The notes: generated from the sequence alone by a model not told the origin. Shown: positions 8,129 through 45,677, counted from the stretch's first letter. The stretch is DNA of 64,000 nt from a virus (IMGVR_UViG_3300037743_000151:1-64000); one strand, 5' to 3'. A program made the numbers and translations.

Positions 8129-8165
8129 CCACCCCTCCCGGCGCCGCCCCAACAAGGAGAACGTG

Positions 8166-9638
8166 ATGAGTACGAGACTGACGGAACTGTCGCCAGACCA
8201 GGTGGCGGCTCTCGCCACTACCCGCGATAAATGGCTCGCCCACGGTCTCGCGACCGGCCCCGCCGACCGTGCGGAGGCGGAGGCGGGGGTGCGTGATGCG
8301 TATCGTGCTGCTGGTTTGGAGCCGCCGCAGACTGTGATCTGGCTTGACTCGCCGATGGCTGGCGCGATCGCTGCCTGGATGTTCACGACTGCTCGGGCTC
8401 AGGTCGGGGATCAGGTCGGGGCTCAGGTCCGGGCTCAGGTCTGGGCTCAGGTCCGGGATCAGGTCTGGGATCAGGTCTGGGATCAGGTCGGGGATCAGGT
8501 CTGGGCTCAGGTCGGGGATCAGGTCCGGGATCAGGTCTGGGATCAGGTCTGGGATCAGGTCGGGGATCAGGTCGGGGATCAGGTCGGGGCTCAGGTCCGG
8601 GCTCAGGTCCGGGCTCAGGTCGGGGATCAGGTCGGGGATCAGGTCCGGGATCAGGTCGGGGATCAGGTCTGGGCTCAGGTCCGGGATCAGGTCGGGGATC
8701 AGGTCTGGGCTCAGGTCGGGGATCAGGTCTGGGCTCAGGTCTGGGCTCAGGTCGGGGATCAGGTCCGGGATCAGGTCCGGGCTCAGGTCTGGGCTCAGGT
8801 CTGGGCTCAGGTCTGGGCTCAGGTCGGGGATCAGGTCCGGGCTCAGGTCGGGGATCAGGTCCGGGCTCAGGTCGGGGATCAGGTCGGGGATCAGGTCTGG
8901 GCTCAGGTCGGGGATCAGGTCCGGGCTCAGGTCGGGGATCAGGTCTGGGCTCAGGTCGGGGATCAGGTCGGGGATCAGGTCTACAAGGCCGTACCCGGAC
9001 AGCACGACGCCGGATGGCTCTCGTTCTACGACTACTTCCGCACCCACTGCACCATCCAAGAAGCCGACCGGCTCACCGGCATGATGCGCGTCTCCCAGTC
9101 CGCCGGCTGGTGGTGGCCCTTCCAGAACGCCGTCATCCTCACCGAACGTCCCACCAGCCTCCACCGCGACGGCCAAGGCCGCCTCCACAACGAGACCGGC
9201 CCCGCTCTCGCCTACCCCGACGGGTTCGCCATCTGGGCATGGCACGGCACCCGCGTGCCGCGCGACCTCATCGAAACCAACTGGAACCTCAAACAGATCT
9301 TCGACGAACCCAACGCGGAAATCCGCCGCTGCGCCATCGAAAAAATCGGCTGGGACCAGTTCATCCAAGAGTCCGGCCTACGCAAGGTGGCCTCCTGCCC
9401 CGACCCCGGGAACGCCCCCTACCACCTCGCCCTCTACGAGCTGCCCGAGCAGCTCGACAACCTCTACGACGAGCCAGCACGCATCCTCCTCGCCGTCAAC
9501 GGCAGCCCGGAACCCGACGGCGAACACCGCCGCTTCGGCCTGCCCGTCCCCGCACACCACACCGACCCCGTCGAAGCCGCAGCCGAAATGTACGGCTGGC
9601 CCGTGGCCGCCTACCAGCAGCTCGAACACCGCCGCTGA
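8166..9638 (+). CDS. DUF6745-like protein with central 49-unit tetrapeptide repeat
   Basis: ATG 8166 after AAGGAGA RBS (GTG 8163 also possible). Conserved N- and C-terminal domains flank ([D/A]QV[G/W/R])x49. The C-terminal WWWPF...ILTERP...HNETGPA pattern recalls DUF6745 (from memory). Confidence 0.75.
8397..8984 (+). repeat. 49 tandem 12-bp in-frame repeats, consensus G[A/C]T CAG GTC [G/T/C]GG
   Basis: Read directly from the sequence. Every unit has invariant CAGGTC and GG. Only unit positions 2 and 10 vary. The last unit ends TAC. Confidence 0.95.
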
Positions 9639-39918: not shown

Positions 39919-41331
39919 ATGGGCACCAACGACAGGGCGACAGTAGCGGCACGCGCCGCCGCCCTCCTCGGCGCCCAACTCACCCCACGCTGGACACCAC
40001 TACCCCACCAAGTACCGCCCCCCGGCAACTGGTATGGCTGGCTCCTCCTCGCCGGCCGCGGCGCCGGCAAGACCGACGCCTGCGCCGAATACATCGCCCG
40101 CCACATCGCCGGACCACCCTGCCTCCCGGGCCCGGTACCCCACTGGGTCGGCATCATTGCGCCCACCCAGGGCGACGCCGTCACCGCCTGCGTGTCCGGG
40201 CCGTCCGGTATCAAAGCCCATGACCCCACCGCCGTCGGCCCGATCACCACGGCAGGCGGCACCGTCGTCCGCTGGCCCAACGGGAGTCAGGCCAAGCTGT
40301 ACGGGGCGAATAGTCCGGAAGATGTGGAAAGGCTCCGCGCTGGGGGCAATACCTGCGTGGCCTGGTTGGAGGAATTTGCCGCGTGGCGGCACATGCAGGA
40401 CGCCTTCGACCAACTCCGCTTCGGCCTCCGCTCCGGTCCGCGCCCACACTGGGTCGCCTCCACCACCCCGAAGCCCAAACCCCTACTGAAGCGCCTCATG
40501 CAAGGCGAGATCCCGAACGTCGTCACCACCACGGCGACCATGTACGACAACCCACATCTCCCGCAGCACATCCGCGACATGCTCGAAGACGCCTACGCGG
40601 GAACCGACCTCGGCGAGCAGGAGCTGTACGGCCGACTCCTCGACGAGATCAAGAACGCCCTATGGCGAAGGAAGTTCCTCGCCGCCGGCCGCATGCGCCT
40701 CGACGACCTGCCGGACCTCATCCGCCGAACGGTCGGCGTCGACCCTTCCGGCGGCGCAGGGGAGCAGGGCATCGTCGTCACCGCGAAGTCGGGGCTTCTG
40801 CTACCCGGACTGCTGCCCGGCCCCGAGCTGGACCCCGACGAACCGGCCCCGGTCGGTGCACCACGCCCGCAGCCGCACGGCTTTGTCCTGGACGACCGGT
40901 CGTGCCAGCTCCCGCCGGAGGGCTGGGGGCAGCGCGCGGTACAGGCCGCGATCGACTGGGAGGCCGAGGACGTGGCGGTAGAGGTCAACTACGGGGGGGA
41001 CCAAGCGATCGCCGTGATCCGCACAGCGATGGAGAAACTCGGGGTGGATATCCCGATCCGGAAGGTGCGCGCGTCGCAGGGCAAGGCGATCCGTGCACAG
41101 CCAGTGGCCGCGCTCAGCGCTCAGGGCCGGTGGCATCACGCGGGCACATTCCCGGAATTGGAGGACCAGCTAGCCACGTGGTACCCGGAGTTGGGCTGGT
41201 CGCCCGATCGCCTCGACGCACTCGTATGGGGACCATGGCATATGAAACTCGTGGGCACGATGACGCACGGCCAGGGTTCGTTGGGCGGGGATCTGGCCAG
41301 AAAGCAGATTGTCGGGGGGCGGCTACGGTGA
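39919..41331 (+). CDS. terminase large subunit
   Basis: ATG 39919. Walker A LLLAGRGAGKTD, WLEEFA (Walker B-like), and a C-terminal RNase H-like nuclease region with acidic residues; 470 aa. Positioned ahead of the portal. Confidence 0.8.
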   Translation: MGTNDRATVAARAAALLGAQLTPRWTPLPHQVPPPGNWYGWLLLAGRGAGKTDACAEYIARHIAGPPCLPGPVPHWVGIIAPTQGDAVTACVSGPSGIKAHDPTAVGPITTAGGTVVRWPNGSQAKLYGANSPEDVERLRAGGNTCVAWLEEFAAWRHMQDAFDQLRFGLRSGPRPHWVASTTPKPKPLLKRLMQGEIPNVVTTTATMYDNPHLPQHIRDMLEDAYAGTDLGEQELYGRLLDEIKNALWRRKFLAAGRMRLDDLPDLIRRTVGVDPSGGAGEQGIVVTAKSGLLLPGLLPGPELDPDEPAPVGAPRPQPHGFVLDDRSCQLPPEGWGQRAVQAAIDWEAEDVAVEVNYGGDQAIAVIRTAMEKLGVDIPIRKVRASQGKAIRAQPVAALSAQGRWHHAGTFPELEDQLATWYPELGWSPDRLDALVWGPWHMKLVGTMTHGQGSLGGDLARKQIVGGRLR

Positions 41332-41336
41332 CGGGC

Positions 41337-41585
41337 ATGAGCATCTGGAGAACGGTCGGCCACGACGGGCCGGAGGTCGTTGGGATCCCAGACGAGACGG
41401 ACGCCGTGCACTATCGAGGCGGCGGGGAGGCCACCGCCACCGTCGACGTCGCCGTGACCAGCATGCACGGCGGGGTGCGCCTCGGTATCGAGTTCGATGG
41501 CTCGACGAAGGATGTCCTCCTCGACCGGGAGAACGTGGCGCTGTTGCGTGACCGGCTGACGGTCGTACTGGAGGGTGAGTCGTGA
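41337..41585 (+). CDS. hypothetical protein
   Basis: ATG 41337 (GTG 41328 would give a GTGA overlap with the terminase stop); 82 aa. Confidence 0.5.
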   Translation: MSIWRTVGHDGPEVVGIPDETDAVHYRGGGEATATVDVAVTSMHGGVRLGIEFDGSTKDVLLDRENVALLRDRLTVVLEGES

Positions 41586-42016
41586 GTCTGTGGTTGCTGC
41601 TGCTCGTGATGGCGCTCGCGGTGTACCGGCTTACCCGCTTGGTCGTGGCTGACACGTTCCCGCCGGTGCTGTGGCTGCGTGACCGGCTTGTCGGTGGGTG
41701 GCGTGAGCCGACGATGAAGGAGCAGCATCACGATGCGTTCCCGACCGGGGAGGTCGAGGAGGGCTGCTTCAAGAGCATTCCAAACCTGGGCATGTTCGGG
41801 CTGCTCGACGGTGAGTTGCAGATTTACGGCCGCCGGTGGAAGTGGTCGCCGTTCTGGTTGGCTGATCTGTTGTCGTGTCCGTTTTGCGCGTCGGGGTGGA
41901 TTGCTGTCGGGGTGACGGCGGGTGTGTGGGCCACGGTCGGTCTGCCGGTGCCGCTGCTGGTGTGGCTGGCGGTGTGGGCGGTGGGCGGCCTGTTGGCGTC
42001 GCAGGAGTGGGCGTGA
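41582..42016 (+). CDS. DUF1360-like membrane protein
   Basis: GTGA overlap. VYRLTRLVVADTFPP ... LLSCPFCASGWIAV matches the DUF1360 pattern (from memory). Four hydrophobic helices. Confidence 0.6.
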   Translation: MSLWLLLLVMALAVYRLTRLVVADTFPPVLWLRDRLVGGWREPTMKEQHHDAFPTGEVEEGCFKSIPNLGMFGLLDGELQIYGRRWKWSPFWLADLLSCPFCASGWIAVGVTAGVWATVGLPVPLLVWLAVWAVGGLLASQEWA

Positions 42017-42099
42017 CGCCGGAACGCGGGCCGGAGACGGGCCCGTAGCATTCAGGGTGTAGGAGCCGGGCCTTCGGGTTCCGGGGTGGTGGCGCACAG

Positions 42100-42130
42100 G
42101 GGCCGTCCGCAGTGGGCATGCGGACGGCCC
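42100..42130. terminator. hairpin terminator (11-bp stem)
   Basis: GGGCCGTCCGC (42100-42110) pairs with GCGGACGGCCC (42120-42130). Confidence 0.6.
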
Positions 42131-42154
42131 TCGCTGCTGCTCGGGGTGTGGGAA

Positions 42155-42180
42155 GGGGCCGCCTCCGTAGAGACGGCCCC
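42155..42180 (-). other. hairpin of module A1
   Basis: GGGGCCG (42155-42161) pairs with CGGCCCC (42174-42180). It directly abuts the ACCAAGAAGAGCC box. Confidence 0.5.
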
Positions 42181-42233
42181 ACCAAGAAGAGCCACGCCAC
42201 GCCCTGCCTTGCCTCGCCCTGCCGAGCCATGCG
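42181..42233 (-). repeat. module A1: box ACCAAGAAGAGCC followed by GCC every 5 nt (G-rich sense on the minus strand)
   Basis: GCC at 42191, 196, 201, 206, 211, 216, 221 and 226 (8 of 8), then GCG at 42231. Confidence 0.85.
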
Positions 42234-42253
42234 CTGGTCAGCTTAACGGCGAA

Positions 42254-42275
42254 GGGCTCCACCGAAGTGGAGCCC
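42254..42275 (-). other. hairpin of module A2 (UUCG loop in minus-strand sense)
   Basis: GGGCTCCAC (42254-42262), loop CGAA, GTGGAGCCC (42267-42275). Confidence 0.6.
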
Positions 42276-42358
42276 ACCAAGAAGAGCCTTGCCATACCAC
42301 GCAATGCCGAGCCGAGCGCTGCCCAACCGAGCGCTGCCTTGCCATGACCAGCCAAGCG
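42276..42358 (-). repeat. module A2: box ACCAAGAAGAGCC followed by 15 phase-locked NNGCC units
   Basis: Phased triplets from 42286 to 42356: 8 are exact GCC and the rest differ at one base. Confidence 0.8.
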
Positions 42359-42394
42359 GAGGCTAGCCCGAGGGCTTCACAGTACCGCCAGAGC

Positions 42395-42450
42395 CGTCAT
42401 TCTGAATACATCTCTTCTTTCGGAGTGACACATGACGGTATATATTCGCG
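42395..42450. promoter_or_regulatory. AT-rich core between inverted arrays (candidate divergent promoters)
   Basis: CATTCTGAATACATCTCTTCTTTCGGAGTGACACATGACGGTATATATTCGCG is the most AT-rich stretch I noticed in the window. Possible leftward promoter: -35 TTCAGA (42406-42401) and -10 TACTGT (42384-42379). Confidence 0.35.
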
Positions 42451-42469
42451 TGGTGCCACCGGCACGCTC

Positions 42470-42582
42470 GGCGTGGCACTGCCCGGCAAGCTGAGGCATG
42501 GCATGGCCTGGCGGGGCACGGCGGGTCATGGCTAGTCAAGGCCAGGCGGGGTAAGGCACGGCGCGGCTCTTCTTGGCTTGGT
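42470..42582 (+). repeat. module A3: (GGCNN) array plus box GGCTCTTCTTGG (42565-42576), immediately upstream of the RBS of gene 42614
   Basis: Exact GGC at 16 of 23 positions spaced exactly 5 nt apart (42470...42580). Confidence 0.85.
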
Positions 42583-42613
42583 TCCCACCACCACACGGCA
42601 CGGAGGACACCGA

Positions 42614-43186
42614 ATGCAGTTCCGCATCACCATCACTGGCACCGCCGAACTCCTCATGCACAACGCCCGCTTGTCCAACCCCATTGACCCCGCAGCCAAA
42701 GCGATGAAGGCCGTCACCTCCAAGCGCGTCAAGACCGACGACGACCACGAGGAGTTGGCCCGCCTCGAACACCTCGGCTCGCTTTACTACGACCCCGAGA
42801 TCGGACCGTTCGTCCCCGGCCAGAACATCGAACGCGCTCTCGTCGACGCCGCCAAGGTCACCAAGTCCGGCGTCAAGGTCACACGCGGCGTGTTCATCTC
42901 CACCAACGTCAACCCCCTCGCCTACAAGGGGCCGCGCGACATCGACGGCCTGTGGGCAGACGAGAACTTCCGGCACATGGCATCCGTCAAGGTCCAGCAG
43001 AACCGCGTGATGCGCTGCCGCCCCATGTTCCGGACCTGGCGCACCGAGGCGGAAGGCACACTGGACACCCGAGTTCTGTCCCTCGAAGAACTCCAGGGCA
43101 TCGCGGACACGGCAGGAGCGATGATCGGTCTCGGTGACTACCGCCCCCGCTACGGCCGCTTCACTGCGGAGGTAACCAAGCTGTGA
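42614..43186 (+). CDS. hypothetical protein (190 aa) of the array-flanked cassette
   Basis: ATG 42614 after GGAGGA RBS. Native-looking GC-rich codon usage. The N-terminal beta-strand-like MQFRITITG and the C-terminal glycine-rich IGLGDYRPRYGRF weakly recall RAMP/RRM-fold proteins. No firm family. Confidence 0.6.
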   Translation: MQFRITITGTAELLMHNARLSNPIDPAAKAMKAVTSKRVKTDDDHEELARLEHLGSLYYDPEIGPFVPGQNIERALVDAAKVTKSGVKVTRGVFISTNVNPLAYKGPRDIDGLWADENFRHMASVKVQQNRVMRCRPMFRTWRTEAEGTLDTRVLSLEELQGIADTAGAMIGLGDYRPRYGRFTAEVTKL

Positions 43187-43695
43187 ACGGCGTCAAGACC
43201 CGCGTGGACGTCCTGTACGAGCTGTTCCAGCGTGCAGACCTAGTCACTTACGAGCAGGCCGCAGAAGCCCTTGGGCTCGACCCGATACAGGACCGGAAAG
43301 CCATCCGGGACACCATGGGACGCGTCAGAAGGAAGCTGCTCGCCAGGGATGGGCGGGCGCTCCGTTCCGTCCCAGACGTCGGCTACCGGATCGCTGAACC
43401 GAACGAGCACATCACCCTGTACCGCGAGCGTAAGAAGCGTGGGACAAATCAGCTCGTGACGGGTCGCGACGAGCTGAAAGGCACTGACCTTTCGAGCCTG
43501 ACGCAGGAGGGCCGGGATGCTGTCCTGGCGGAGAGTGTCGCGGCATCTCGGATCATCGACTTCATCGTGTCGACGGATCGTCGCTTGCGGAAGCAGGAGG
43601 CGAAGATCGATGAGATCAAGGGTGAAGTGACCCGCAACGCCGAGGAGTCTGCGGAGATCAAGAAACGCCTCACCCAGTTGGAACAGCCTGGGTAG
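43183..43695 (+). CDS. winged-helix (OmpR/PhoB-type-like) DNA-binding protein with C-terminal coiled coil
   Basis: GTG 43183 (GTGA overlap). VRRKLLARDGRALRSVPDVGYRIAEP resembles the OmpR-type wing. The C-terminal 60 aa are heptad-like. It uses codons rare in high-GC actinomycetes (CTA, ATA, AGA, AGG, AAT, AGT). Confidence 0.6.
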   Translation: MNGVKTRVDVLYELFQRADLVTYEQAAEALGLDPIQDRKAIRDTMGRVRRKLLARDGRALRSVPDVGYRIAEPNEHITLYRERKKRGTNQLVTGRDELKGTDLSSLTQEGRDAVLAESVAASRIIDFIVSTDRRLRKQEAKIDEIKGEVTRNAEESAEIKKRLTQLEQPG

Positions 43696-43702
43696 AGGTT
43701 GC

Positions 43703-43794
43703 GGCCGGACATGGCGTGACGTGTCCTGGCACGGTGCGGCCGGACATGGCGGGGCAAGGCCGGGCGGGGCGCGGCGCGGCGGGGCTTCTCTGGG
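43703..43794 (+). repeat. module A4: (GGCNN) array plus box GGCTTCTCTGGG (43783-43794)
   Basis: Exact GGC at 12 of 17 phased positions (43703...43783). Internal 16-nt direct repeat GCGGCCGGACATGGCG at 43701 and 43736. Confidence 0.85.
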
Positions 43795-43795
43795 T

Positions 43796-43821
43796 GGGCC
43801 CCCACCTTCGGGTGGGGGCCC
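43796..43821 (+). terminator. 11-bp GC hairpin with UUCG tetraloop following array A4, 75 nt upstream of the portal start
   Basis: GGGCCCCCACC (43796-43806), loop TTCG, GGTGGGGGCCC (43811-43821), then CCCTTCGCC as in module A2. Confidence 0.65.
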
Positions 43822-43895
43822 TTCGCCATGCCCGGAATGATCTTCTCGGCCGCGCTCTTACCCTCCCCTCGCAGACCGCGAACAGGGAGACCCGG

Positions 43896-45677
43896 ATGGC
43901 CTGGTGGCACACCTTCACCCGACGCGGCACACCCACGCCCACACCCCTCCCCACCCACACCGAACAGCAACCCAACGCAATCACCGCCGCCGCAGCACCC
44001 GTCTCCAGCCCCCGCACCGACCTCATCCGCAACACCGACGGCTGGCAAGAAGAAGTCTGGGGATTCCACGACACCCTCGGCGAATTCCGGTACGCCACCG
44101 ACTGGGAAGCCAAACGCTTCTCCCGCGTCCGCCTCTACGCCGCCAAGCTGGAGCCAGGGGCCGACGAGCCCGTACGCGCCAAGGCCGGAACCGCCGTCGA
44201 CCTCATGACGGCGTTCGCTGGTGGCCCCGCCGGACAAGCGCAGATCATGGGCGGCCTCGCCACGCAACTACGGGTCCCCGGCGAGGGCTACCTCATCGTC
44301 GAGAGCGTGAGCGGTATCGAGCAGTGGTCGGTGCGCTCCATCGACGAAGTCCGTGCCGCACGCCAGCGGTACGAGGTCATCGACGAGAACAGCCCGCAGT
44401 CCGGCAACAACTGGCGCCCCCTCGCCCCCGACTCGATGGCACCGATCCGGGTATGGCGGCCGAACAAGCGCTGGCACCACATCGCCGACAGCCCCACCCG
44501 CGCCGCGCGTTCCACGATGCGGGAACTGGAGTTGGTGAACCGGCACATCGTTGCCCAGTACCTGTCGCGGCTCGCGTCCGCCGGTGTCGTCATGTTCCCG
44601 TCGGAGGTCACCTTCCCGCAGAAGGAGGAGTTCGCCGACGCGCCGGACCCGTTTGTCGCCGAGTGGATCGAGAACGCGAGGGTCGCGATCGATCAGCCGG
44701 GCACCGCCAGTGCCGTGATCCCGATGCCGATCAAGGTGCCTTCCGAGCTCGTCGAAAAGATCAAGCATCTCGACTTCACCCTGAAGATCGACGAGAAGAT
44801 CATCGAGAAGCGGGACAGCGCCATCAAGCGCCTCGCCTCCCAGCTCAACGTGCCCGCCGAAGTCCTACTCGGCATGGGCGATTTGAACCACTGGAACGCC
44901 TGGAGCAGCGACGAAACCAGCCTCAAAGTCGACGTCGCCCCCGACGCCGAACTCATCTGCCAGGCCATGACCACCGGCTACCTCCAGCCCCGCCTCAAAG
45001 CATCCGGCGTCGAAGACTGGGCGAACTGGGTCATCTGGTACGACATGTCAGAACTGACCCTGCGCCCCGACCGGTCAGACGACGCCATCGCCCTGTACGA
45101 CCGCCTGGAACTCAACGGCGCAGCCCTCCGCCGCGAAACCGGATTCAACGAAGCCGACAAGCCGACCAACGAGGAACTCAAAGAGCAGGCCCTCAAGGTC
45201 ATCATCCACACCCTGCCGTCCGGCGCCGGTAGCGCGCTCACCGAACTCATCGGCGAGCAGGTCACCATCGCCGCGACCGCACCCATCGCCCCCGGCGAAC
45301 AACCCGAGCCGGAGCCCCCGCCGGAAGACCGCACACCACCCGACCCCGACATTGCACGCGAGGCGACCGCGCAAGCCCGCGAGGACCGCATGGTTGCGCA
45401 GGCCCGCGAGCTGCACGCCGTCCGGTTCACGGTCGGCCGGCCTACGGAGCTGCTGCACCCGGCGGCGTGTTCGCAGCACGCCTACTCCTGCCCGTTCACG
45501 CACGCCGCATTGAAGCTCGCCGACCTGCCGAGGCCCGGGACGTCGGGTGTGTATGAGGCGCGCCTGGATCCGTTCGGCCGGTTCACGATCGGCCGGCATG
45601 CGCCGCTGATGGACACGTCCGGCTTCTTCTCGACGATGACTCGGAGCAGTAATGGATTCGCTCGCAGCCGCGGCTGA
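43896..45677 (+). CDS. portal protein
   Basis: ATG 43896 after AGGGAGA RBS; 593 aa. Assigned from position (after terminase, before the MuF/protease gene), size and acidic/helical composition typical of actinophage portals. Confidence 0.7.
   Translation: MAWWHTFTRRGTPTPTPLPTHTEQQPNAITAAAAPVSSPRTDLIRNTDGWQEEVWGFHDTLGEFRYATDWEAKRFSRVRLYAAKLEPGADEPVRAKAGTAVDLMTAFAGGPAGQAQIMGGLATQLRVPGEGYLIVESVSGIEQWSVRSIDEVRAARQRYEVIDENSPQSGNNWRPLAPDSMAPIRVWRPNKRWHHIADSPTRAARSTMRELELVNRHIVAQYLSRLASAGVVMFPSEVTFPQKEEFADAPDPFVAEWIENARVAIDQPGTASAVIPMPIKVPSELVEKIKHLDFTLKIDEKIIEKRDSAIKRLASQLNVPAEVLLGMGDLNHWNAWSSDETSLKVDVAPDAELICQAMTTGYLQPRLKASGVEDWANWVIWYDMSELTLRPDRSDDAIALYDRLELNGAALRRETGFNEADKPTNEELKEQALKVIIHTLPSGAGSALTELIGEQVTIAATAPIAPGEQPEPEPPPEDRTPPDPDIAREATAQAREDRMVAQARELHAVRFTVGRPTELLHPAACSQHAYSCPFTHAALKLADLPRPGTSGVYEARLDPFGRFTIGRHAPLMDTSGFFSTMTRSSNGFARSRG

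What the first reader, a model, noticed from the sequence alone, without database searches (positions are those of the whole stretch)
42155..43821. Four phase-locked pentanucleotide (GGCNN)n arrays with a conserved box and UUCG hairpins, inserted between terminase and portal
No ORF explains this signal. On the top strand, 42191-42233 reads acGCC acGCC ctGCC ttGCC tcGCC ctGCC gaGCC atGCG, with 8 of 8 exact GCC at 5-nt spacing. 42286-42358 continues the pattern for 15 units, 8 of them exact. In the opposite orientation, 42470-42582 has GGC at 16 of 23 phased positions (for example GGCAT GGCAT GGCCT GGCGG GGCAC GGCGG), and 43703-43785 has GGC at 12 of 17.

Each array abuts a conserved box: ACCAAGAAGAGCC at 42181 and 42276, its complement GGCTCTTCTTGG at 42565, and GGCTTCTCTGGG at 43783. 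Three of the four then run into a GC hairpin (42155-42180, 42254-42275, 43796-43821). Read in the G-rich sense, two of these hairpins have a UUCG tetraloop and are followed by the same CCCTTCGCC.

A 5-nt period cannot come from codons, so the constraint acts on the nucleic acid itself. By rough estimate, an exact GGC at a given position should occur only about 4-5 percent of the time at this GC content.

Established precedent: B. subtilis TRAP wraps 11 (G/U)AG triplets separated by 2-3 nt (the same 5-nt geometry) to control a downstream terminator, and Csr/Rsm sponge RNAs carry repeated GGA.

Inference: these are RNA (or ssDNA) tracks for an oligomeric, possibly ring-shaped, binding protein. 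Alternatives are two-tetrad G-quadruplex-forming G2N3 runs, or dsDNA sites for the winged-helix protein encoded by the cassette. I know of no described phage element with this architecture.
Basis: partly seen in the sequence, partly recalled or inferred. Interest (0 to 1): 0.88.

Follow-up and report, generated by a model that had tools for sequence, protein, structure and literature searches.

The report
Phage VIPR guide-RNA arrays
The five-base GGC repeats are real and are almost certainly the guide RNAs of a VIPR system, a phage-borne relative of CRISPR that silences rival phages and was first described in two 2026 preprints, so this is a new member of a known kind.

Summary
Strong 5-nt phasing of GGC/GCC (at least 6 of 12 positions, up to 10) occurs in the 64-kb window only at the four reported arrays.

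The explanation is already published. The 190-aa gene between the arrays (42614..43186) matches the solved "SUSP1 Vipr protein" (PDB 36pp, E 3e-34; profile E 9e-47). Its model has a Cas7/Csm3 RAMP fold, and it keeps the residues that grip the two guanines.

VIPR systems (bioRxiv 10.64898/2026.04.26.720920 and .720927) use vrRNAs made of GGY/NN pentanucleotide repeats plus a conserved 3' tail. One Vipr protomer binds each repeat, and the NN dinucleotides pair with dsDNA, skipping every third base, to silence competing phages.

The locus has all the sequence-level parts:
- vipr and a winged-helix vap gene
- four vrRNAs, two of them divergently transcribed
- conserved tails and hypervariable NN in relatives (73 of 80 related viral contigs carry arrays)

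Local differences are plain GC hairpin tails instead of a pseudoknot, and one tail-less array inside the vipr leader. No natural target was found.

The TRAP/sponge function and the novelty claim were not.

Verdict: new member of a known kind.

The parts
42150..42233 (-). vrRNA 1. In the minus sense it has 7 clean GGCNN repeats (42228->42194; NN = TC AG GA AA AG GT GT). These are followed by the tail box GGCTCTTCTTGGT (42193->42181), an 11-bp GC hairpin with UACG loop (42180->42155) and TTCCC.
   Evidence: The hairpin folds at -31.7 kcal/mol, z -4.0. The same tail is present in relative L011 with different repeats.
42248..42368 (-). vrRNA 2. In the minus sense it has 16 units (42368->42289, several degenerate but in register). 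These are followed by the box GGCTCTTCTTGGT (42288->42276), a 9-bp hairpin with UUCG loop (42275->42254) and TTCGCC.
   Evidence: This tail is absent from L011, where a single 22-unit array occupies the place.
42396..42469 (.). AT-richer spacer between the divergent arrays. It contains TATATATT (42439-42446), a partial box copy CTCTTCTT (42412-42419) and a small hairpin GTGCC-ACC-GGCAC (42454-42466). It is probably the divergent promoter region; this is inferred.
   Evidence: From about 42404 onward this is the best-conserved non-coding block between the window and L011; its first bases (42396-42403) are not conserved. No sigma-70 consensus match was found.
42470..42576 (+). vrRNA 3. It has 19 units: the first 5 are conserved with L011, and the next 14 (42495-42564) are variable (NN = AT AT CT GG AC GG AT TA AA CA GG AA AC GC). 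The box GGCTCTTCTTGG follows at 42565-42576. It has no tail hairpin.
42577..42613 (+). C/A-rich leader CTTGGTTCCCACCACCACACGGCAC with the ribosome-binding site GGAGGA (42602-42607), 6 nt before the vipr ATG.
   Evidence: The same CCACCAC...ACGGAG leader follows the upstream array in L011, L013, L014 and L210. It shows no stable fold (z +1.05).
42614..43186 (+). vipr: a 190-aa RAMP (Cas7-like) protein that coats the vrRNA.
   Evidence: PDB 36pp_D 'SUSP1 Vipr protein', E 3.4e-34 and 9.4e-47 with a profile. phrog_4652, E 7e-60. AF2 pLDDT 90. Foldseek top hits are Csm3/Cas7. The GG-contact residues H16, R136, D175, Y176 and R177 are kept.
43183..43695 (+). vap: a 170-aa accessory protein with an N-terminal winged-helix-like domain and a C-terminal helical extension. 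It overlaps vipr by 4 nt.
   Evidence: Weak Trans_reg_C match (E 0.004, below Pfam cut-off). It aligns with the gene downstream of vipr in SUSP1-type phage wV8 (BLASTP E 2e-4) and in the Gordonia, Mycobacterium and Pseudomonas phages, with an invariant GYR motif.
43703..43827 (+). vrRNA 4. It has 16 units, of which the core 11 (43728-43782) carry NN = AC GC CG AT GG AA CG GG GC GC GG. These are followed by the box GGCTTCTCTGGGT (43783-43795), an 11-bp hairpin with UUCG loop (43796-43821) and TTCGCC.
   Evidence: The tail is 82% identical to that of L011 against 62% for the repeats.

Best explanation
This is a VIPR (Viral Interference Programmable Repeat) locus of the SUSP1/P. fulva kind (type II-like), carried by a Streptomyces-type phage or prophage between its terminase and portal genes.

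Shown here:
- A two-gene operon, vipr (42614..43186) and vap (43183..43695), is flanked by four arrays of GGC-NN pentanucleotides.
- Each array ends in a conserved box, GGCTCTTCTTGG.
- In three of the four arrays the box is followed by a GC hairpin.

Inferred by homology with the experimentally studied SUSP1 and P. fulva systems:
- The arrays are transcribed as about 60-130-nt vrRNAs.
- Vipr protomers polymerise along each vrRNA, one per repeat, into a right-handed filament that buries G1, G2 and Y3 and presents the two variable bases.
- R-loop formation proceeds from the tail end toward the 5' end.
- The bound complex blocks transcription of genes of a competing phage, prophage or satellite. 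Vap, a DNA-binding accessory protein, strengthens the effect.

My inference on transcripts: two transcripts start in the spacer around 42400-42450. One runs leftward (vr2, hairpin, vr1, hairpin). The other runs rightward (vr3, vipr, vap, vr4, hairpin). The hairpins serve as 3' caps and/or terminators.
For: 1. The protein is a Vipr.
- Sequence match to the solved SUSP1 Vipr chain.
- RAMP fold.
- The residues the cryo-EM paper names for G1/G2 recognition and DNA backbone contacts are kept: SUSP1 H17, D177, R138, W178, R179, K33, R39, K82 correspond to window H16, D175, R136, Y176, R177, K32, R38, K81.
- The first five of these are invariant in 54 related loci.

2. The RNA part fits the published definition, GGY/NN repeats followed by an invariable tail.
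- Over 2571 units in 219 arrays next to Vipr genes, G1 is 96%, G2 is 94%, position 3 is 87% pyrimidine, and positions 4 and 5 have 1.94 and 1.99 bits of entropy.

3. The association is conserved across hosts.
- Phased GG arrays flank the gene pair in Gordonia, Mycobacterium, Pseudomonas and E. coli phages.
- They occur in 73 of 80 IMG/VR contigs encoding a relative.

4. The locus shows a guide-like evolutionary pattern.
- Against a relative with 93% identical Vipr, vipr DNA is 92% identical and the tails 82-85%.
- The repeat tracts are only 50-68% identical, with different NN.

5. The tail hairpin is kept by compensatory changes in 6 of 10 pairs.

6. No site in the window matches any of the four guides under the 1-nt-skip rule better than under control skip rules. 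This agrees with the paper's finding of no self-targeting.
Against: - Nothing here shows transcription, RNP formation or silencing in this organism.
- No natural target was found for any of the four guides. This covers seven exact-seed scans (six of IMG/VR, two per guide for vr2 and vr3; GTDB genomes with a vr3 seed; JGI metagenomes with a vr2 seed), the portal relatives, and the fetched loci.
- Several units are degenerate (GTC, GAC, CGC, TGC in place of GGC).
- vr1 has only 7 clean units, against 9-16 reported for SUSP1.
- vr3 has no tail hairpin.
- The tail is a plain hairpin, not the pseudoknot of the SUSP1 clade.
- Two residues of the pyrimidine pocket differ (SUSP1 E71/M72, window Q70/N71).
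- The type assignment could not be checked against the authors' classification tables, which are not held.
Confidence: 0.93

Rival explanations
1. One reading: the arrays are cis- or trans-acting regulatory RNA tracks. They would be TRAP-like attenuation leaders or Csr-like sponges. Their only job would be to bind an oligomeric protein and control the adjacent hairpin terminators or titrate the protein, with no base-pairing to a target.
For: - Three arrays abut GC hairpins that could act as terminators.
- vr3 lies in the vipr 5' leader, 25 nt from the ribosome-binding site, and has no hairpin of its own. Vipr coating could therefore feed back on vipr/vap translation.
- This leader arrangement recurs in relatives.
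Against: - The binding protein is a RAMP homologous to a protein shown to use such RNAs as DNA guides, not a TRAP, CsrA or Hfq fold.
- Positions 4-5 of the units are maximally variable between close relatives, while the protein-contacting GGY is fixed. This is expected of a guide and not of a pure binding track.
- Arrays occur upstream, downstream and on the opposite strand, with no fixed relation to a regulated gene.
Confidence: 0.05
2. The arrays are double-stranded DNA sites (iteron- or centromere-like) for the winged-helix protein encoded at 43183..43695, or for another DNA-binding protein.
For: - The second gene has a weak winged-helix signature.
- The arrays flank the operon on both sides, and two are inverted relative to the others.
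Against: - A 5-bp period puts successive sites on opposite faces of B-DNA.
- The invariant part is only GGY, and the rest is hypervariable.
- The arrays track vipr, which stays 92% identical, while vap has diverged to 56% DNA identity in the same pair of loci.
- In the studied systems the arrays are transcribed and co-purify with Vipr.
Confidence: 0.02
3. The G2N3 runs act through two-tetrad G-quadruplexes in RNA or single-stranded DNA.
For: Runs of GG every 5 nt could in principle form two-layer quadruplexes (sequence).
Against: - A pyrimidine is selected at position 3, and the arrays are tied to a specific protein family.
- In the solved complexes each GG is held in a protein pocket in the syn conformation.
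- Degenerate units are tolerated as long as the register is kept, which a quadruplex would not require.
Confidence: 0.01
4. The locus is a decaying or inactive VIPR remnant. The genes and repeats are recognisable, but the guides no longer direct anything.
For: - Many units are degenerate.
- vr4 carries an internal duplication.
- vr1 is short.
- No target was found (and the scans listed above).
Against: - vipr is intact with all key residues, and its closest relatives are 82-93% identical.
- The tails keep their pairing.
- The authors also note frequent internal degeneracy of functional vrRNAs.
- Exact-seed searches cannot find targets with even one mismatch in the seed.
Confidence: 0.08

Closest known systems
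Type II VIPR systems of Escherichia phage SUSP1 and a Pseudomonas fulva prophage (bioRxiv 10.64898/2026.04.26.720920; cryo-EM 10.64898/2026.04.26.720927; PDB 36pp)
   Same: - Homologous Vipr protein: 38% identity to SUSP1-type phages and 42% to Pseudomonas phage Medea1 by tblastn, and E 3e-34 to the solved chain.
- Homologous vap directly downstream.
- GGY/NN pentanucleotide arrays both upstream and downstream of the operon.
- Conserved 3' tail.
- Viral genome context.
- No self-target.
   Different: - Position 3 is almost always C here (GGC), against mostly GGT in the SUSP1-type phage wV8.
- The tail is a 13-nt box plus a plain 9-11-bp tetraloop hairpin, not a hairpin-pseudoknot.
- Two vrRNAs are on the opposite strand, which is seen in only 4 of 80 related contigs.
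- The upstream vrRNA has no hairpin and runs into the vipr ribosome-binding site.
- Vap carries an extra C-terminal helical segment of about 40 residues.
- The host is an actinobacterium.
- Targets are unknown.
Class 1 CRISPR-Cas backbone (Cas7/Csm3/Cmr4 filaments on crRNA)
   Same: - RAMP fold with thumb and glycine-rich loop.
- One protomer per fixed RNA increment.
- Periodic base flipping that interrupts the guide-target duplex.
   Different: - There is no CRISPR repeat-spacer array and no other recognisable cas-like gene in the cassette or its immediate neighbours.
- The increment is 5 nt, with three bases buried and two paired, instead of 6 nt with one flipped.
- Specificity is written inside the repeats themselves.
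B. subtilis TRAP bound to (G/U)AG repeats in the trp leader
   Same: A protein oligomer reads a short conserved motif repeated every about 5 nt in single-stranded RNA, next to a hairpin.
   Different: - The protein fold is unrelated, and TRAP is a closed 11-mer ring.
- The spacer bases carry no information in TRAP, whereas here they are the information.
- TRAP controls an overlapping antiterminator. No such overlap is present here.

Membership tests
VIPR system | A Vipr protein: a minimal RAMP (RRM core, glycine-rich loop, thumb) homologous to the characterised Vipr proteins | tested here: met
   - PDB 36pp_D SUSP1 Vipr, E 3.4e-34 (single sequence) and 9.4e-47 (profile).
- AF2 pLDDT 90.3.
- Foldseek best hits are Csm3/Cas7 of types III and VII.
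VIPR system | Residues that recognise G1 and G2 and contact the DNA backbone are kept | tested here: met
   - H16, D175, R136, Y176 (W in most relatives), R177, K32, R38 and K81 align with SUSP1 H17, D177, R138, W178, R179, K33, R39 and K82.
- H, R, D, W/Y and R are invariant in 54 loci.
- Pyrimidine-pocket residues differ (Q70/N71 against E71/M72).
VIPR system | Tandem YNNGG (GGY/NN) repeats, at least four units, in the intergenic DNA flanking vipr | tested here: met
   Four arrays of 7-19 units. This is the only strong (at least 6 of 12) 5-nt GGC/GCC phasing in the 64-kb window.
VIPR system | GGY conserved and NN hypervariable among related loci | tested here: met
   - Logo over 2571 units.
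- Window against L011: repeats 50-68% identical with different NN, against 92% for vipr.
VIPR system | An invariable, structured 3' tail after the repeats | tested here: met
   - A box plus GC hairpin follows vr1, vr2 and vr4, and is conserved and covarying in relatives.
- The form differs from the SUSP1 pseudoknot.
- vr3 has the box but no hairpin.
VIPR system | An adjacent vap accessory gene (type II: predicted DNA-binding, winged-helix-like) | tested here: met
   - 43183..43695 overlaps vipr by 4 nt.
- It aligns with the corresponding gene of the SUSP1-type phage wV8 (E 2e-4) with an invariant GYR motif.
- It gives a weak Trans_reg_C hit.
- Assignment to the authors' type II could not be checked against their tables.
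VIPR system | Viral or proviral context without CRISPR array or cas operon | tested here: met
   - The locus lies between terminase large subunit and portal.
- Tandem-repeat scan shows no CRISPR-like array in the window.
VIPR system | vrRNAs are expressed and co-purify with Vipr | not testable with these tools
   This needs small-RNA sequencing and pull-down.
VIPR system | Guides match DNA of competing mobile elements under the 1-nt-skip rule (at least 80% of NN) and do not match their own genome | tested here: inconclusive
   - No self-match above control skip rules.
- No convincing external target in the exact-seed scans (vr1 and vr4 one IMG/VR seed each, vr2 and vr3 two each; GTDB with a vr3 seed; JGI metagenomes with a vr2 seed), nor in the related loci held.
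- Mismatch-tolerant searches of Streptomyces pangenomes could not be run.
TRAP-type RNA-binding attenuation | A TRAP-fold ring protein, (G/U)AG triplets, and an overlapping antiterminator/terminator | tested here: not met
   The protein is a RAMP, the motif is GGY, and there are no alternative pairings with the hairpins.
CRISPR-Cas class 1 | A repeat-spacer array with cas genes for processing and adaptation, and a 6-nt guide periodicity | tested here: not met
   - The cassette has only two genes, and its immediate neighbours are terminase, DUF1360 and portal.
- The period is 5 nt, and no repeat-spacer array is present.

The most novel reading that the evidence does not exclude
In actinobacterial VIPR loci the 3' tail of the guide may have been swapped for modules that the host's own tRNA-maturation enzymes recognise. 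These are plain 9-11-bp GC minihelices in this window, and full acceptor-stem/T-arm mimics with a canonical GTTCRANTC loop in at least 22 related loci. Cutting of multi-guide transcripts into single vrRNAs would then be outsourced to RNase Z or RNase P, as hammerhead ribozymes do it in other VIPR types. In addition, the tail-less guide embedded in the vipr leader may make Vipr production self-limiting. The word 'tRNA' does not occur in the held text of the two VIPR preprints; leader-based autoregulation was not searched for in them.
Probability: 0.3. Interest if true: 0.55.

Novelty: new member of a known kind. Interest (0 to 1): 0.35.

Why it matters
It shows that a reader working from raw sequence alone picked out a genuine RNA-guided system, one recognised in the literature only months before the databases used here were frozen. 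The strange 5-nt code has a solved structural basis.

For VIPR biology the locus adds:
- an actinobacterial, high-GC member
- a different tail
- divergent guide transcription
- a guide fused to the vipr leader

The family-wide survey done here suggests that tail type is modular. That bears on how vrRNAs are made, and on how compact programmable repressors might be ported into Streptomyces.

The four guides predict gapped 33-57-bp DNA sites. These could identify which phages compete in the host once a mismatch-tolerant search is run.

Tried and rejected
1. Rfam, all families, permissive threshold, on 41000-45000: no hit. tRNA scan of the window: none.
2. blastn against 50,697 phage genomes: only weak hits inside the vipr gene and no close relative of the phage.
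3. Sigma-70 promoter and intrinsic-terminator consensus scan of 41900-44000: no promoter, and none of the tail hairpins qualifies because they lack a U-run.
4. [quoted passage not shown] - Guides from seven related loci scored against the window give background only.
- Exact seeds of 7-10 units gave only chance hits in low-GC or unrelated contigs: 5-120 hits each, with no extension beyond the seed. These covered all four guides in IMG/VR (scored in 46, 58, 77), GTDB genomes and JGI metagenomes.
- Nine viral contigs encoding portal relatives of this phage gave no match.
5. A lead that did not hold:
- Read as codons, vr3 gives VTP(K/N)(D/E)(I/M)(I/M)LGTG(I/M)Y(K/N)(H/Q)G(K/N)TA. Its best self-match is in frame in the phage's own portal gene (NVPAEVLLGMGDLNHWNAW).
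- vr2 antisense best matches the N-terminus of the phage's own Vipr.
- The scores equal those of out-of-frame chance hits (z about 6 for all), and no portal or vipr homologue in hand reaches 80%.
- A peptide-profile search of the protein database for the vr3-coded peptide returned no candidate. The method may have been defeated by the X padding needed to reach the minimum length.
6. Link between the pyrimidine-pocket residue and C versus T at position 3: M at the SUSP1 M72 position goes with T-rich arrays and N with C-rich ones. However, genome GC content explains the trend equally well.
Full report
OBSERVATION

I read 41500-44500 and parsed the four arrays in register. In the G-rich sense they are:

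- vr1 (minus strand, 42228->42194): GGCTC GGCAG GGCGA GGCAA GGCAG GGCGT GGCGT
- vr2 (minus strand, 42368->42289): 16 units, several degenerate
- vr3 (plus strand, 42470-42564): 19 units
- vr4 (plus strand, 43703-43782): 16 units

Each array runs into GGCTCTTCTTGG(T) (GGCTTCTCTGGGT for vr4). For vr1, vr2 and vr4 a 9-11-bp GC hairpin with a UACG or UUCG loop follows, and then TTCCC or TTCGCC.

A scan of the whole window (68.6% GC; GGC at 3.6% of positions) finds at least 6 of 12 phased GGC or GCC at period 5 only in these places, with a maximum of 10 of 12. Periods 3, 4, 6 and 7 give lower maxima elsewhere. The signal is real and unique in the window.

SURROUNDINGS

- The arrays flank two overlapping genes: 42614..43186 (190 aa) and 43183..43695 (170 aa).
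- Upstream lie a terminase large subunit (39778..41331) and a DUF1360 membrane protein (41582..42016).
- Downstream lies the portal gene (43896..45677).
- The 190-aa protein has no Pfam domain but belongs to phrog_4652 (E 7e-60, function unknown).
- The 170-aa protein has a weak winged-helix signature (Trans_reg_C, E 0.004).

THE ASSOCIATION IS CONSERVED

tblastn of the 190-aa protein finds it in 130 phage genomes. Most are Felixounavirus phages of E. coli and Salmonella. Others include Gordonia phages MakoManhole and Trine, Mycobacterium phage LittleE, Pseudomonas phage Medea1 and Vibrio phages.

- In the five loci I opened, the gene sits in different neighbourhoods: tail genes, replication genes and genome ends.
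- It is always followed by a gene of 146-267 codons as annotated. In Trine that annotated gene begins in the arrays, and the real start looks later.
- In every one of them, 5-nt phased GG(C/T) arrays flank the pair.
- The big protein collection holds 849 relatives. The closest are 82-93% identical, from Streptomyces genomes and soil metagenomes, and all are unnamed.

IDENTIFICATION

A profile of 41 relatives matches one solved structure, PDB 36pp chain D, "SUSP1 Vipr protein". The E-value is 9.4e-47, or 3.4e-34 with the single sequence. An AlphaFold model (pLDDT 90.3) matches Csm3/Cas7 RAMP subunits of type III and VII CRISPR effectors.

The literature search led to two preprints from one laboratory:

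[quoted passage not shown] They define VIPR systems as follows:

- a vipr gene (a minimal RAMP) and a vap accessory gene
- vrRNAs made of 9-16 YNNGG repeats, in which GGY is conserved and NN hypervariable, followed by an invariable structured tail
- location mainly in phages and prophages

Their mechanism:

- One Vipr protomer binds each repeat in a right-handed filament.
- G1 and G2 are held by H17, D177, R138 and W178, and the pyrimidine sits in a narrow pocket.
- The NN bases pair with double-stranded DNA in which every third base is skipped.
- R-loop formation starts at the tail end.
- The outcome is transcriptional silencing of competing phages, satellites or prophages, and vap1 enhances protection.

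HOW THE WINDOW FITS

- The alignment to the solved chain keeps H16, D175, R136, Y176 (W in most relatives), R177, K32, R38 and K81. The first five are invariant in 54 related loci.
- The second gene aligns with the gene downstream of vipr in the SUSP1-type phage wV8 (E 2e-4) and in the actinophage and Pseudomonas loci. The GYR motif is invariant. The actinobacterial versions add a C-terminal helical segment.
- Of 80 IMG/VR contigs encoding a relative, 73 carry phased arrays next to the gene, almost always on the same strand.
- Over 2571 units: G1 96%, G2 94%, position 3 C 73% and T 14%, positions 4 and 5 at 1.94 and 1.99 bits.

Comparison with L011, a contig whose Vipr is 93% identical and which has the same terminase-DUF1360-cassette-portal order, shows the guide signature:

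- vipr is 92% identical at DNA level.
- The tails and the leader are 82-85% identical.
- The repeat tracts are 50-68% identical with different NN.
- vap is only 56% identical.

The tail hairpin is maintained by compensatory changes in 6 of 10 pairs across 11 tails. It folds strongly (-31.7 and -34.8 kcal/mol for vr1 and vr4).

I therefore file the locus as a VIPR system, type II-like. I could not check this against the authors' classification tables.

WHAT IS PARTICULAR HERE

- The tail is a box plus a plain hairpin, not the pseudoknot described for the SUSP1 clade.
- Two vrRNAs are transcribed divergently from the operon. Opposite-strand arrays occur in only 4 of the 80 contigs, and in L011.
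- vr3 has no hairpin. Its box is followed by a C/A-rich unstructured leader and the vipr ribosome-binding site 25 nt later. This arrangement is shared with L011, L013, L014 and L210. Vipr coating of this array could therefore limit vipr/vap translation, which is inference only.
- The first five units of array 3 and the AT-richer spacer (from about 42404 onward) are conserved with L011. This block probably holds the promoters and a 5' leader, and the variable guide is 42495-42564. No sigma-70 consensus was found.

TARGETS

Following the authors' rule (GGY replaced by one wildcard), I scored each guide against the following:

- the window itself
- related loci
- exact 7-10-unit seeds in IMG/VR, GTDB genomes and JGI metagenomes

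Nothing rose above chance.

Two suggestive in-frame self-matches did not beat the background and found no homologue at 80% or better. One was vr3 against the phage's own portal motif LLGMGDLNHW. The other was vr2 antisense against the phage's own Vipr N-terminus.

So absence of self-targeting is shown, and the natural targets remain unknown. The searches available could not tolerate mismatches in the seed.

VERDICT

It missed that the variable bases are the message, and that the element had just been described.

This is a new member of a known kind, with variant tail and array layout. It is of moderate interest in itself.

The most interesting loose end is outside the window. Many actinobacterial relatives end their vrRNAs in tRNA acceptor/T-arm mimics. 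The word 'tRNA' does not occur in the held text of either preprint.

Noticed in passing
L001 (Gordonia phage MakoManhole) 1640-1700 and 2985-3150; L002/L248 (Mycobacterium phage LittleE); L003/L250 (Gordonia phage Trine); L012 2690-2880; L013 2820-2870; 19 of the 80 loci L209-L288: In many actinobacterial VIPR loci the vrRNA tail is a tRNA-like minihelix. It has a 5-6-bp acceptor-like stem, an 8-11-nt linker (often GATGGTC), a 5-bp stem, a canonical T-loop GTTCRANTC, and then (A/G)CGC.

Over 38 tails the T-stem pairs at 4.8 of 5 positions and the acceptor at about 5 of 6, with many compensatory pair types.

ARAGORN calls one an odd tRNA, and Rfam gives a sub-threshold mascRNA hit (E 0.6). The word tRNA does not occur in the held text of either VIPR preprint.

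This suggests processing by RNase Z or RNase P.
   Followed up: partly
window 8395-8981, inside ORF 8163..9638 (+): There are 49 tandem copies of a 12-nt unit (GGGATCAGGTCG, 89% matches). They encode (D/A)QV(G/W/R) tetrapeptide repeats in a 491-aa protein whose C-terminal half is a DUF6745 domain (E 7e-44).
   Followed up: partly
window 43183-43695 against L011 3570-4106: The accessory gene vap diverges far faster than vipr. In the same pair of loci, vap is 56% identical at DNA level (34% protein) and vipr is 92%. This suggests module exchange or rapid evolution of vap.
   Followed up: partly
window 43703-43716 and 43738-43751: vr4 contains an internal direct duplication (GGCCGGACATGGCG; TRF period 35, 2.1 copies). 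Relative to L011, the window also has an extra tail that splits one long leftward array into vr2 and vr1. Arrays seem to grow and split by local duplication.
   Followed up: no
window 44847-44903 (portal codons 318-336) and 42623-42670 (vipr codons 4-19): The best 1-nt-skip self-matches of vr3 and vr2 fall in frame on conserved motifs of the phage's own portal and vipr genes (22 of 38 and 19 of 32 NN bases). The scores are at background level, so this may be chance. It would fit guides aimed at homologous genes of rival phages.
   Followed up: yes
window 42412-42419 and 42454-42466: The spacer between the divergent arrays holds a partial copy of the tail box (CTCTTCTT) and a small hairpin, GTGCC-ACC-GGCAC. 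Both are conserved in L011.
   Followed up: no
L209-L288: C versus T at repeat position 3 varies between loci, from 93% C to 60% T. It tracks both genome GC content and the residue aligned with SUSP1 M72 (N in C-rich loci, M in the T-rich loci L274 and L275). The two explanations could not be separated.
   Followed up: partly
L014 2696-2780: ARAGORN predicts an 85-nt tRNA-Glu(UUC) immediately upstream of the vrRNA arrays of this metagenomic VIPR locus. It is unclear whether it is a true tRNA gene or another tail-like mimic.
   Followed up: no
window 42017-42131: Three further GC hairpins lie between the DUF1360 stop codon and vr1. The last one (GGGCCGTCCGCAGTGGGCATGCGGACGGCCC, 42100-42130) is conserved in L011. 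They are probably terminators that insulate the cassette.
   Followed up: no
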